From assembly GCF_009914755.1 (NCBI RefSeq), contig NC_060931.1: a DNA stretch of 64,000 nucleotides; one strand, 5' to 3'. The translations under genes were made by a program, and so were the position numbers. This document shows, piece by piece, positions 47,387 through 55,060 of this stretch. Position 1 is the first letter of the stretch, and every line of letters begins with the position of its first letter. The notes below the pieces were generated by a model. The model did not search any database. It was given only the letters and a program-made list of their open reading frames with translations, and had not been told where the DNA came from. The stretch comes from the human T2T-CHM13v2.0 reference genome, Homo sapiens.

Positions 47387-47905
47387 GGTGGAGGGCATTT
47401 TGAAAGACAGAGCCCAGAGGAGGTGCTAGGCAGGGATAGGAAAGCTGGGGGCAGTGAGCAGGGACGGGGGACTGGGCCAGCACTCCTGAGGAAGGAGACC
47501 TTGCAGGATGACAAGAGTGTATGGTACAGATAAGAGTGTCGTGGGAGGTGTGGCCACTGTGCAGAGTGTTAAGGCAGGTGCCAGACTGGGGAGGCTGCGC
47601 TTCCTTCACGACTTCTGCCGGTGTCTGAGCAGATCAGGTCTGTGGTTGGAGCTGTGCCTCCAGGAAGGCCAAGTGGCAACTGTGTGTGGATTAGGCCAGA
47701 GGGGACAGAGTGGAGGCAGGGGAATGAGTCTCACTGGCCAGGAGGGAGAAACAAAGGAAAGGAGGGGCCTGACCAGCAGAAAGACATTGTGCAAACCGAA
47801 TCACCTCTATTTATGACTGCAGTGAGCTCTCAGCAGTGCCTGTTGAACTAGGCTGCAGGGCTTCCATAATGTTATCTTGTTGTAGCATCAAAAGGCTTAG
47901 TTTTT

Positions 47906-48570
47906 TGTTTTTTTTTTTAAGTTTTTAAAATGGTTTAATTTCTTTGAATATCATCGGACTAGAGTTTGCCCAGGTGGCAGAATTTAGTTAGGGCCTTTAG
48001 CTGAAAATTGTTAGTGCAGTGAAGGTTTACCCTGAGTGGGCAAAATATTAAGGATCCCTTTCAAGTTTATTTTCAATTGATAAAATGCTTATTCTCCTAA
48101 CCAATTCTTCTTTTTTTTTCTTTTTCAACTTTTATTTTAGAATCCAGGGGTACACGTGCAGGATTGTTACAGAGGCCTATTGCATGACTCTGAGGTTTGG
48201 GGTATGACTGAACCCATCCCCCTGGTAATGAGCACAATCCCTAATAGGTAGATTCTCAGCCCTTTTCCTTGTCCCTCTCTCCCGCCTCTAGCAGTCCCCA
48301 GTGTCTACTGTTCTCCTCCTTATGTCCATGAGTACCCATTGTTAAGCTCCCACTTATAAGAACATGCAATGTTTGGTTTTATTTCTGCATTAGTTCACTT
48401 AGGATAATGGCCTCCAGGTGCATCAATGTTGCTGCAAAGGGCATCATTTCATTCTTTTTTATGGCTGCATAGTATTCCATGGTTCATACCACGTTTTCTT
48501 TTTTTTTTTTTTTTTCATTAAAGTAGGCCTTTAATGGTGGAATTACAGTCATCTTAGTTGAAGAGATTTG
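47906..48570 (-). other. L1-mediated 3' transduction block (three segments separated by A-tails)
   Basis: Lies between the L1 tail and the distal TSD copy at 47889-47905; T-tracts on + at 48499-48515, 48105-48125 and 47906-47918. Confidence 0.82.
48126..48498 (-). mobile_element. Older L1PA (PA13-16-like) 3' end fragment inside the transduction
   Basis: ATGGAATACTATGCAGCCATAAAAAAGAATG..GGAGCTTAAC..CCCCTGGATTCTAAAATAAAAGTTG on the - strand. Confidence 0.8.
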
Positions 48571-48783
48571 TTTTTCTTTGTTTTTTTTAAGTTTTAGGGT
48601 ACATGTGCACAATGTGCAGGTTAGTTACATATGTATACATGTGCCATGCTGATGCGCTGCACCCACTAACTCGTCATGTAGCATTAGGTATATCTCCCAA
48701 TGCTATCCCTCCCCCCTCACCCCACCCCACAACAGTCCCCAGAGTGTGATGTTCCCCTTCCTGTGTCCATGTGTTCTCATTGT

Positions 48784-52593
<3,810 letters not shown>

Positions 52594-52656
52594 TATGATG
52601 TTAGCTGGTTATTTTGCTCGTTAGTTGATGCAGTTTCTTCCTAGTCTCGATGGTCT

Positions 52657-53671
52657 TTACATTTTGGCATGATTTTGCAGTGGCTGGTATCGGTTGTTCC
52701 TTTCCATGTTTAGCACTTCCTTCGGGAGCTCTTTTAGGGCAGGCCTGGTGGTGACAAAATCTCTCAGCATTTGCTTGTCTGTAAAGTATTTTATTTCTCC
52801 TTCACTTATGAAGCTTAGTTTGGCTGCATATGAAATTCTGGGTTGAAAATTCTTTTCTTTAAGAATGTTGAATATTGGCCCCCATTCTCTTCTGGCTTGT
52901 AGAGTTTCTGCTGAGAGATCCGCTGTTAGTCTGATGGGCTTCCCTTTGTGGGTAACCCGACCTTTCTCTCTGGCTGCCCTTAATATTTTTTCCTTCATTT
53001 TGACTTTGGTGAATCTGACAATTATGTGTCTTGGAGTTTCTCTTCTTGAGGAGTATCTTTGTGGTGTTCTCTGTATTTCCTGAATCTGAATGTTGGCCTG
53101 CCTTGCTAGATTGGGGAAGTTCTCCTGGATAATATCCTGACGAGTGTTTTCCAACTTGGTTCCATTCTCCCCGTCACTTTCAGGTACACCAATCAGACGT
53201 AGATTTGGTCTCTTCACATAGTCCCATATTTCTTGGAGGCTTTGCTCGTTTCTTTTTATTCTTTTTTCTCTAAACTTCCCTTCTCACTTCATTTCATTCA
53301 CTTCATCTTCCATCGCTGATACCCTTTCTTCCAGTTGATCGCATCGGCTCCTGAGGCTTCTGCATTCTTCATGTAGTTCTCGAGCCTTGGTTTTCAGCTC
53401 CATCAGCTCCTTTAAGCACTTCTCTGTATTGGTTATTCTAGTTATACATTCTTCTAAACTTTTTTCAAAGTTTTCAACTTCTTTGCCTTTGGTTTGAATT
53501 TCCTCCTGTTGCTCGGGGTAATTTGATCGTCTGAAGCCTTCTTCTCTCAGCTCGTCAAAGTCTCTCCATCCAGCTTTGTTCCGTTGCTGGTGAGGAACTG
53601 CATTCCTTTAGAGGAGGAGAGGCGCCCTGCTTTTTAGAGTTTCCAGTTTTTCTGCTCTGTTTTTTCCCCAT
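52657..53671 (-). pseudogene. L1 ORF1, frameshifted
   Basis: ATG at 53671, ends ..PLQNHAKM*; span is 1015 nt against 1017 expected, with a 2-nt loss near 53562. Confidence 0.9.
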
Positions 53672-54575
53672 CTTTGTGGTTTTATCTACTTTTGGTCTTT
53701 GATGATGGTGATGTACAGATGGGTTTTTGGTGTGGATGTCCTTTCTGTTTGTTAGTTTTCCTTCTAACAGACAGGACCCTCAGCTGCAGGTCTGTTGGAG
53801 TACCCTGCCGTGTGAGGTGTCAGTGTGCCCCTGCTGGGGGGTGCCTCCCAGTTAGGCTGCTCGGGGGTCAGGGGTCAGGGACCCACTTGAGGAGGCAGTC
53901 TACCTGTTCTCAGATCTCCAGCTGCGTGCTGGGAGAACCACTACTCTCTTCAAAGCTGTCAGACAGGGACATGTAAGTCTGCAGAGGTTACTGCTGTCTT
54001 TTTGTTTGTCTGTGCCCTGCCCCCAGAGGTGGAGCCTACAGAGGCAGGCAGGCCTCCTTGAGCTGTGGTGGGCTTCACCCAGTTCGAGCTTCCAGGCTGC
54101 TTTGTTTACCTAATCAAGCCTGGGCAATGGCGGGCTCCCCTCCCCCAGCCTCGCTGCTGCCTTGCAGTTTGATCTCAGACTGCTGTGCTAGCAATCAGCG
54201 AGACTCCGTTGGGTAGGACCCTCCAAGCCAGGTGCAGGTTATAATCTCCTGGTGCGCCGTTTTTTAAGCCTGTCGGAAAAGCGCAGTATTCGGGTGGGAG
54301 TGACCTGATTTTCCAGGTGCCGTCTGTCACCCCTTTCTTTGACTAGGAAAGGGAACTCCCTGACCCCTTGTGCTTCCCGAGTGAGGCAGTGCCTCACCCT
54401 GCTTCGGCTCGCACACGGTGCACGCACCCACTGACCTGCGCCCACTGTCTGGCGCTCCCTAGTGAGATGAACCCGGTACCTCAGATGGAAATGCAGAAAT
54501 CACCGTCTTCTGCGTCGCTCACGCTGGGAGCTGTAGACCGGAGCTGTTCCTATTCGGCCATCTTCTCTCCTAACC
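53672..54575. promoter_or_regulatory. L1 5'UTR internal sense promoter (-) and antisense promoter (+)
   Basis: YY1 core AAGATGGCC near the 5' end; CpG-rich; a known property of L1PA 5'UTRs, but activity here is unknown. Confidence 0.6.
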
Positions 54576-55060
54576 CAAAAGGCTTAGTTTTTGATCCCCA
54601 GATGGCTGACATATCTGCCCTGAGATTTGTAATTTTTGTAGGAAAACTAAGATTCCTGATAAAGATTCAGATCTTTCTTCAGTAATAATTTTAAAACTCT
54701 CAAACTTTCTCTAACAACTTCTTCCAGGCTTCATAAATGCAGCTATGTTATTAGGCTCTTTGAAGAGAGGTAAGGGGGGTACCTGTCTTCTACATAATAT
54801 ATCAGAAAATTTCAATTCTTTAGACTTACTCTCACCAGCCTCCCAGGTATGTAGTTTTTTGTCTTACTATAAGTCCCTAAAATTAACTGGCCCACAAAAC
54901 GTCTTTAAAATCAATGTTTAGTTCCCCATACTCATCTTTCCTTCTTTCTCTCCCTAGAATAGGTCTGGCAGTAAATAAATTTAGAAACTTTTTTTATTTC
55001 CTGACTTAAACTGACATTTGCATTGGGGAGCAGGTAAGAGTTTTGTTGTGTATGTGTGTG

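What the first reader, a model, noticed from the sequence alone, without database searches (positions are those of the whole stretch)
47889..54592. Full-length L1 carrying serial, stacked 3' transductions: a multi-generation jump record
Seen in sequence: the 17-bp TSD (47889-47905 and 54576-54592) brackets the L1 plus about 680 bp beyond its tail. On the - strand the order is: L1, tail 1 (48571-48588), ~55-bp unique segment with ATTAAA (48530-48535) 14 nt before tail 2 (17 A, 48499-48515), old L1PA 3' fragment with AATAAA, tail 3 (48105-48125), ~185-bp unique segment with ATTAAA (47934-47939) 15 nt before tail 4 (47906-47918), then the TSD. Established knowledge: L1 read-through carries flanking DNA, and each round adds a new poly(A). 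Inference: this copy descends through at least two, possibly three, earlier loci, each tagged by one transduced segment, so the lineage repeatedly produced active full-length offspring.
Basis: partly seen in the sequence, partly recalled or inferred. Interest (0 to 1): 0.85.

Follow-up and report, generated by a model that had tools for sequence, protein, structure and literature searches.

The report
L1 with three stacked 3' transductions
A dead full-length L1 jumping gene on human chromosome 7 drags behind it three short pieces copied from chromosomes 6, 13 and 12, a record of three earlier stops of its ancestors; it is a clean example of a process that is already described.

Summary
An exact 17-bp target-site duplication (54592-54576 and 47905-47889) brackets one 6,670-bp insertion: a 5,990-bp full-length L1 with broken ORFs, plus about 680 bp of 3' extension. 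Searches of the window's own assembly map the three segments of the extension to three chromosomes. Segment 1 maps to chr6 (61/61 identical), segment 2 to chr13 (373/385) and segment 3 to chr12 (181/190). In each source the match starts at an A-rich site preceded by T, as an L1 endonuclease target would. It stops 13-20 nt after an ATTAAA or AATAAA, where the chr7 copy switches to A's or to the next segment. A single donor is therefore excluded, and the count is three hops rather than "two or three". All three source sites are empty in this assembly and no sibling carries any tag, so the intermediate elements were lost. Tails 1 and 3 are mostly templated or very short, not clean poly(A). The L1 also lacks the usual terminal block that carries its own AATAAA (19 copies like it against 14,374 standard ends), which may explain the repeated read-through. 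Serial 3' transductions are already in print, so this is a new example of a known kind.

The parts
54576..54592 (-). 5' target-site duplication (17 bp)
   Evidence: Exact repeat of 47889-47905. The empty site would read ...GGGGATC|AAAAACTAAGCCTTTTG|ATGC...; on the bottom strand the nick is TTTTT/GA.
48586..54575 (-). Full-length L1 body, 5,990 bp, with ORF1 and ORF2 both interrupted. It ends at ...CCCTAAAACTTAAA and lacks the usual GTATAAT...AATAAA terminal block.
   Evidence: 5' start matches the relatives. Only ORF pieces of 113, 567, 260 and 181 aa remain, with Pfam hits to Tnp_22_dsRBD, Transposase_22, Exo_endo_phos and RVT_1. The 3' end was compared with 29 relatives and genome-wide.
48576..48585 (-). 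Remnant called 'tail 1' (AAAAACAAAG): either a short degenerate poly(A) or a local duplication of the start of segment 1
   Evidence: Not templated by chr6. It is 9/10 identical to 48575-48566.
48515..48575 (-). Transduced segment 1, copied from chr6 (G000:C6:125905760-125905820, +)
   Evidence: 61/61 identical, and the only other copy in the genome. In the source it starts at TGTATT|AAAAAACAAATC and ends 14 nt after ATTAAA, where chr6 continues AGTGAATTGTGTGTTCTG.
48530..48535 (-). ATTAAA poly(A) signal used at the chr6 stop
   Evidence: 14 nt lie between the hexamer and the A-run.
48502..48514 (-). Untemplated core of tail 2 (13 A's of the 17-A run 48499-48515)
   Evidence: Absent from both the chr6 and the chr13 source.
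48117..48501 (-). Transduced segment 2: the 3' end of an old, diverged L1, copied from chr13 (G000:C13, about 42443489-42443873, +)
   Evidence: 373/385 identical, while the next best genomic copy is 81%. At chr13 the old L1 continues 59 bp further upstream, so the junction ...TTGCAT|AAAGAAAAC lies inside it.
48131..48136 (-). AATAAA of the old L1, the signal nearest the end of segment 2
   Evidence: The chr13 match fades 13-20 nt downstream, inside the old L1's A-rich tail.
48110..48116 (-). Ambiguous 7 nt (AAAAAAG): either a remnant of tail 3 or still the chr13 tail with one substitution and one extra A
   Evidence: Compare chr13 GTTGAAAAAGAAACAAAAGAAAAGTTG with chr7 GTTGAAAAAGAAAAAAAAAGAAGAATTGG.
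47920..48109 (-). Transduced segment 3, copied from chr12 (G000:C12, about 15596828-15597017, -)
   Evidence: 181/190 identical, and the only other copy in the genome. In the source it starts at AAAGATT|AAGACTTGG and ends after AAAAACT, where chr12 continues GATATGTCC.
47934..47939 (-). ATTAAA poly(A) signal used at the chr12 stop
   Evidence: 14 nt from the hexamer to the last templated base.
47906..47919 (-). Terminal tail 4 (T, 11 A, C, A)
   Evidence: not present at chr12.
47889..47905 (-). 3' target-site duplication (17 bp)

Best explanation
One L1 retrotransposition event placed a 6,670-nt composite RNA copy at this chr7 site. The RNA was an L1 followed by three successive 3' transductions, built up over three earlier generations. 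An ancestor sat at chr6. Its transcript ran past the L1 end and was cut 14 nt after an ATTAAA 40-odd nt into the flank (segment 1). That copy landed inside an old L1 fragment on chr13. Its transcript ran on to the old L1's own AATAAA and A-rich tail (segment 2). That copy landed on chr12, and its transcript ran 190 nt further to another ATTAAA (segment 3). This last RNA inserted at chr7. Each intermediate must have been full-length and competent, and all three have since been lost, because their sites are empty in this assembly. What is shown: the single TSD, the three separate sources, the exact end-points at poly(A) signals, the empty sites and the absence of siblings. What is inferred: that each source once carried the L1, the order of the hops (taken from the order of the tags), an age of roughly 10-17 Myr, and that loss of the L1's own terminal AATAAA block drove the repeated read-through.
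For: A single exact 17-bp TSD encloses the L1 plus the extension, so everything arrived in one event. Segment 3 has exactly one other genomic copy, on chr12 (2 of 2 candidates scored). Segment 1 has one, on chr6 (2 of 2). Segment 2 has one near-identical copy, on chr13 at 97%; the other 38 scored hits are at most 81% (40 scored of 7,757 candidates). Exact boundaries and identities are 61/61, 373/385 and 181/190. All 3 of 3 segment ends lie 13-20 nt after ATTAAA or AATAAA, whereas only 2.3-8% of background positions do; the chance for all three is about 3e-5 to 5e-4. All 3 of 3 segment starts in the sources are A-runs preceded by T, and 2 of 3 are preceded by TT. The background for A-run starts is 33% T and 10.8% TT, giving p about 0.036 and 0.032. 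The sources run on into unrelated unique sequence on both sides, so they are the originals and not further copies. The young L1 has no similarity within 1.5 kb of any source except to the old L1 fragment itself, at 72%. Divergence from the sources is 21/636 = 3.3% with no significant gradient (Fisher p = 0.35; P of 0/61 = 0.13), so the hops were close together in time. Serial 3' transductions with this same layout are reported in print (PMC4859970, Fig. 2 legend passage, citing Szak 2003; PMC5932605 passage).
Against: No donor L1 is present at any of the 3 source sites (0 of 3). No other L1 in the assembly carries any of the tags. Every intermediate is therefore inferred, not seen. The segment 2/segment 3 junction has at most 7 untemplated bases and 'tail 1' has at most 10, so two of the four expected poly(A) tails are vestigial. 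Both hexamers were bypassed, so a hexamer alone does not determine cleavage. Only one human haplotype could be searched, and no other primate.
Confidence: 0.88

Rival explanations
1. Chimeric retrocopy made in one event by reverse-transcriptase template switching. ORF2p started on a polyadenylated chr12 transcript, then jumped to a chr13 transcript, then to a chr6 transcript, and finally to the poly(A) tail of an ordinary L1 RNA.
For: One TSD encloses everything, as this model also expects. Each segment begins with an A-run, where nascent T-rich cDNA could pair with the next RNA's poly(A). The near-absent tail between segments 2 and 3 fits a microhomology jump.
Against: It needs three consecutive switches. 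It also needs three unrelated, non-repetitive, apparently non-genic stretches to be transcribed, polyadenylated and at hand in the same particle. It does not predict the T or TT before each A-run in the sources (3 of 3 T, 2 of 3 TT). Tail 2 is a clean run of about 13 untemplated A's at a canonical cleavage distance, as expected of a real earlier insertion. Whether the sources are transcribed could not be tested here.
Confidence: 0.06
2. Single 3' transduction from one donor locus, absent from this assembly, whose downstream flank already held the three pieces, for example as stacked orphan insertions.
For: A donor absent from one haplotype cannot be excluded by a search of that haplotype.
Against: No locus in the assembly has the pieces contiguous. 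The pieces come from three chromosomes and each ends at a poly(A) site of its source. A composite flank would therefore itself have to be built by retrotransposition from L1s at those same three sites, all in the same orientation and directly abutting. That adds events rather than removing them.
Confidence: 0.04
3. Independent, stepwise insertions at chr7, with the pieces and the L1 arriving separately into each other's A-tails.
For: L1 endonuclease favours A/T-rich tails, so nested insertions are common (general knowledge).
Against: The 5' copy of the TSD abuts the L1's first base and the 3' copy follows the last tail. No internal TSD pairs flank the individual pieces: one search lists no other exact repeat of 14 nt or more.
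Confidence: 0.01

Closest known systems
Serial (stacked) L1 3' transductions, as reported by Szak et al. 2003 (cited in Hancks & Kazazian 2016, PMC4859970) and in a mouse tumour L1 TF insertion (Schauer et al. 2018, PMC5932605)
   Same: The layout is L1, A-tract, unique piece, A-tract, unique piece, terminal poly(A), all inside one TSD, and the tags are used to trace ancestry (passages seen).
   Different: There are three tags here rather than the two in the passage I could read. The event is old and fixed-looking rather than somatic. All donors are gone, two of the internal tails are vestigial, and the L1 lacks its own terminal signal block. Szak 2003 itself could not be read, so I cannot say whether this very element is in its tables.
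Human L1 transduction families / lineages (AC002980, LRE3, RP; the chr11 'lineage progenitor' family)
   Same: A 3' tag marks descent from a particular source locus (passages in PMC4866827; PMC6425141).
   Different: Those are young L1HS families with many living members and identifiable donors (14 members in PMC6425141). This lineage is represented by a single dead copy with no extant donor or sibling.
Chimeric retrocopies from L1 RT template switching (U6-L1 type; recalled, not read here)
   Same: Several unrelated RNA-derived pieces, same orientation, inside one TSD.
   Different: Known chimeras, as I recall them, join abundant small or messenger RNAs. Here the pieces are short flanks that begin at endonuclease-type sites and end at poly(A) sites.

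Membership tests
L1 3' transduction (serial) | One target-site duplication encloses the L1 plus all extra 3' sequence | tested here: met
   17/17 exact repeat at 54576-54592 and 47889-47905, the only exact direct repeat of 14 nt or more in the region.
L1 3' transduction (serial) | Each extra piece is a copy of single-copy DNA from elsewhere, in the L1's orientation, and the pieces come from different loci | tested here: met
   chr6 61/61, chr13 373/385, chr12 181/190. Each source is the only close copy in the assembly.
L1 3' transduction (serial) | Each piece ends at a polyadenylation site of its source (hexamer 10-30 nt upstream; the source continues where the copy turns to A's) | tested here: met
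   3 of 3: ATTAAA +14 nt (chr6), AATAAA +13-20 nt (chr13), ATTAAA +14 nt (chr12). Background is 2.3-8% of positions.
L1 3' transduction (serial) | Each piece starts with the donor's 3' TSD, that is, at an L1 endonuclease-type site (T-rich | A-rich) in the source | tested here: met
   TT|AAAAAA (chr6), AT|AAAG (chr13), TT|AAGA (chr12). T at -1 in 3 of 3 and TT in 2 of 3, against a background of 33% and 10.8%. The statistical support is modest.
L1 3' transduction (serial) | A poly(A) tract separates successive pieces | tested here: inconclusive
   Tail 2 (about 13 untemplated A's) and tail 4 (11 A's) are clear. 'Tail 1' is at most 10 nt and may be a duplication, and tail 3 is at most 7 nt.
L1 3' transduction (serial) | Corroborating, not defining: a donor L1 stands directly upstream of the piece at its source, or siblings share the tag | tested here: not met
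   0 of 3 sources carry an L1 of this type within 1.5 kb. No other copy of any tag exists. Lost or unfixed donors are compatible with the family.
Full-length LINE-1 (primate L1PA-type) | 5' UTR start, ORF1 and ORF2 (EN, RT) domains, 3' UTR | tested here: met
   The start coincides with 7 of 7 other copies that hold the anchor (7 of the 11 other top hits). Pfam hits: Tnp_22_dsRBD 1e-45, Exo_endo_phos 2.5e-11, RVT_1 7e-23. The 3' UTR is 97-98% identical to its nearest copies. No subfamily was assigned, because no labelled consensus was available.
Full-length LINE-1 (primate L1PA-type) | Own terminal AATAAA block before the tail | tested here: not met
   0 of 29 nearest relatives lack it. Genome-wide there are 19 copies with this element's end against 14,374 with the standard end. 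This is a private defect of the copy or its lineage and does not argue against its being an L1.

The most novel reading that the evidence does not exclude
The lineage had lost the L1's own polyadenylation block: the body ends at CTTAAA, a state seen in 19 copies against 14,374 standard ends. It therefore became an obligate read-through element. Every transcript had to borrow a signal from the flank, which would explain three transductions in three successive generations. If so, an L1 can stay competent and propagate for several generations with no 3' processing signal of its own, and the whole relay ran through unfixed, now vanished source loci.
Probability: 0.4. Interest if true: 0.5.

Novelty: new member of a known kind. 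Interest (0 to 1): 0.3.

Why it matters
This is a fully resolved case of a triple-tagged L1. Each tag is pinned to the base at its source, so it can serve as a worked example of how transduction tags record ancestry. It also shows directly that successive source elements of a successful lineage can all fail to fix. The co-occurrence of a rare missing terminal signal with three consecutive read-throughs suggests a testable cause for transduction-prone lineages. It does not change what is known about L1 biology.

Tried and rejected
Single-donor transduction is rejected, because the three pieces lie on chr6, chr13 and chr12 and each source continues into unrelated sequence.

Stepwise insertions at chr7 are rejected on the single TSD.

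I tested whether the 18 other L1 copies that share the truncated CTTAAA+A end are siblings. They are not. The 17 that gave a hit are 90-95.6% identical to this element over up to 1.5 kb, apart from one trivial 59-nt match. They are less similar than the 3'-UTR-nearest set (94-97.8%), so the truncated end arose independently in them. One of the 18 (L063) gave no hit at the threshold used.

I did not test whether those copies carry transductions more often than usual, because their 5' ends and TSDs were not in hand.

The 29-nt similarity between the L1 end with 'tail 1' and the segment 3 end with tail 4 (family D2, 86%) is low-complexity AAAACTT+A-run. Part of it is templated by chr12, so I treat it as chance.

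A divergence gradient that would order the hops was looked for and not found.

Literature: three searches returned nothing useful on stacked transductions. Szak 2003, Macfarlane 2013, Beck 2010, Tubio 2014, Khan 2006 and Pickeral 2000 are not held.
Full report
**1. What is in the sequence**

Read on the minus strand, the region is: flank; the 17-mer AAAAACTAAGCCTTTTG (54592-54576); an L1 starting at 54575; about 680 bp of extra sequence; the same 17-mer (47905-47889); flank. The repeat finder on 47600-54900 lists 7 direct-repeat families of 14 nt or more. This pair is the only one with 100% identity (D5, spacing 6687).

The L1 is full length. Its first bases sit at the same distance from a shared 5' anchor as in the 7 other copies that hold that anchor, which are 7 of the 11 other top hits. 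The body from 54575 to 48586 is 5,990 bp.

It is dead. Only ATG-ORFs of 113, 567, 260 and 181 aa remain. They hit the L1 ORF1 C-terminal domains, the endonuclease and two halves of RVT_1.

**2. Where the three extra pieces come from**

The window's own assembly could be searched.

- Segment 3 (47919-48104) has exactly one other copy, at chr12:15.60 Mb.
- A 76-nt query across segment 1 has exactly one other copy, at chr6:125.91 Mb.
- Segment 2 is the 3' end of an old L1. It has one near-identical copy at chr13:42.44 Mb (97%). The other 38 scored hits are 77-81% identical (40 scored of 7,757 candidates).

Pairwise BLAST gave the exact limits and identities:

| Segment | Window coordinates | Source | Identity |
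|---|---|---|---|
| 1 | 48575-48515 | chr6 | 61/61 |
| 2 | 48501-48117 | chr13 | 373/385 |
| 3 | 48109-47920 | chr12 | 181/190 |

All three sources run on into unrelated unique DNA on both sides. They are therefore the originals, not further retrocopies. They are not adjacent to each other anywhere in the assembly.

**3. The junctions carry the marks of retrotransposition**

- *chr6:* the match begins at TGTATT|AAAAAACAAATC. It ends 14 nt after ATTAAA, where chr6 continues with a GT-rich stretch and chr7 has A's.
- *chr13:* the match begins at TTGCAT|AAAGAAAAC, 59 bp inside the old L1 fragment, which continues upstream there. It fades 13-20 nt after that L1's AATAAA, inside its A-rich tail.
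- *chr12:* the match begins at AAAGATT|AAGACTTGG. It ends 14 nt after ATTAAA, where chr12 continues GATATG and chr7 has T plus 11 A's.

As background, only 2.3-8% of positions in the window and the three loci have such a hexamer 10-30 nt upstream. The chance that all three ends do is about 3e-5 to 5e-4. Among A-run starts in the window, T precedes in 33% and TT in 10.8%. Seeing T in 3 of 3 and TT in 2 of 3 gives p of about 0.036 and 0.032. That is modest but real support for endonuclease target sites, that is, for the 3' TSDs of former donor elements carried along. This is how the review describes a transduction (PMC4859970, Fig. 2 legend).

**4. Interpretation**

One TSD means one insertion of one composite template. 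Three sources, each ending at a poly(A) site and each starting at an endonuclease-type site, mean the template was built by three successive read-throughs. The order is chr6, then chr13, then chr12, then chr7, taken from the order of the tags.

Every intermediate had to be full length and competent. None survives: the three sites are clean empty sites, and the young L1 has no match within 1.5 kb of them other than the old fragment itself, at 72%. No other L1 in the assembly carries any tag. The lineage therefore ran through source loci that never fixed.

**5. Corrections to the anatomy**

- 'Tail 1' is at most AAAAACAAAG (48585-48576). It is 9/10 identical to the following 10 nt, which are chr6-templated, so it may be a local duplication rather than a poly(A) remnant.
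- Tail 2 has about 13 untemplated A's.
- 'Tail 3' is mostly the old L1's own tail copied from chr13. At most 7 nt are untemplated. Priming inside that A-rich stretch is as likely as a shrunken tail.
- The fragment is not L1PA-like. It is 72-77% identical to the young L1.

**6. Age**

Divergence from the sources is 0/61, 12/385 and 9/190, pooled 21/636 = 3.3%, with 5 mismatches at CpG. There is no significant gradient (Fisher p = 0.35; P of 0/61 = 0.13), so the hops were close in time compared with the time since.

With a recalled neutral rate of 1.0-1.2e-9 per site per year, this gives about 10-17 Myr. That is rough, and the rate comes from memory. The L1 body agrees. Over the last 1.5 kb its nearest relatives are 94-97.8% identical. 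Its 3' UTR is 97-98% identical to the nearest copies and its 5' UTR 96-97%. I did not assign a subfamily.

**7. An extra observation**

The L1 body runs ...CCCTAAAACTTAAA straight into the A-rich remnant. All 29 of the 29 copies most similar to its last 312 nt continue with the GTATAA/TTATAA...(AAT)n block that holds the element's own AATAAA. Genome-wide, an exact 25-mer for this element's end occurs 19 times (including this copy), against 14,374 occurrences of a 27-mer for the standard end, which is 0.13%.

The other 18 are not close kin. The 17 that gave a hit are 90-95.6% identical apart from one trivial 59-nt match, and one gave no hit. The state is therefore private to this copy or its lineage.

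If the block was already missing in the ancestors, every transcript had to use a flanking signal, and three transductions in a row follow naturally. Read-through is otherwise the minority outcome: about 15% (PMC10883270 passage) or about 25% (PMC13009371 abstract). With no sibling, the timing of the loss cannot be fixed here, and it could have happened at chr7 after insertion. I put this reading at about 0.4.

**8. Rivals**

- *Template switching* by the reverse transcriptase across four RNAs would also give one TSD and A-rich junctions. However, it needs three switches and three unrelated non-repetitive transcripts at hand. It does not predict the T's before the A-runs or the clean tail 2. 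I give it 0.06.
- *A single composite donor* absent from this haplotype would itself need L1s at the same three sites. I give it 0.04.
- *Stepwise insertion* at chr7 is excluded by the TSD geometry. I give it 0.01.

**9. Novelty**

Serial 3' transductions are stated to have been reported and to be usable for tracing an element's history (PMC4859970, Fig. 2 legend passage and reference list, citing Szak et al. 2003). A two-step example is described in a mouse tumour (PMC5932605 passage). Transduction families and lineages are well studied (PMC6425141 and PMC4866827 passages).

My searches were about the phenomenon, not this locus. Szak 2003 could not be read. I therefore cannot say whether this very element is already listed, and supplements that I could not see may bear on that.

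Verdict: a real and correctly interpreted finding, but a new example of a known kind. Interest 0.3.

Noticed in passing
G000 loci L047-L065: Eighteen other L1 copies genome-wide end at ...CCCTAAAACTTAAA followed directly by a poly(A) tail, with no terminal GTATAAT...AATAAA block. They are scattered and older-looking (90-95.6% identical to this element). They may reflect premature 3' end formation or internal priming at insertion.
   Followed up: partly
L028 (chr21:8.70 Mb), L030 (chr14:7.71 Mb), L032 (chr13:11.64 Mb): Three L1 3' ends share essentially the same tail and downstream flank (…AAATAAAAGAAATTCAGCAC). They are presumably copies within acrocentric short-arm segmental duplications rather than separate insertions.
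   Followed up: no
L006:1439-1885 (chr13:42.443 Mb): The source of segment 2 is a 5'-truncated fragment of about 450 bp from an old L1 3' end. The vanished donor had inserted 59 bp inside it, in the same orientation.
   Followed up: yes
window 48576-48585 vs 48566-48575: The 10 nt called 'tail 1' (AAAAACAAAG) nearly repeat the first 10 nt of the chr6-derived segment (AAAAACAAAT). This suggests a small tandem duplication at the L1/flank junction.
   Followed up: partly
window 47907 and 47919: The terminal tail is interrupted by a C just before the 3' TSD, and it begins with a T where chr12 has G. The TSD could be read as 18-19 bp with a 1-nt difference in A-run length if the C is included.
   Followed up: no
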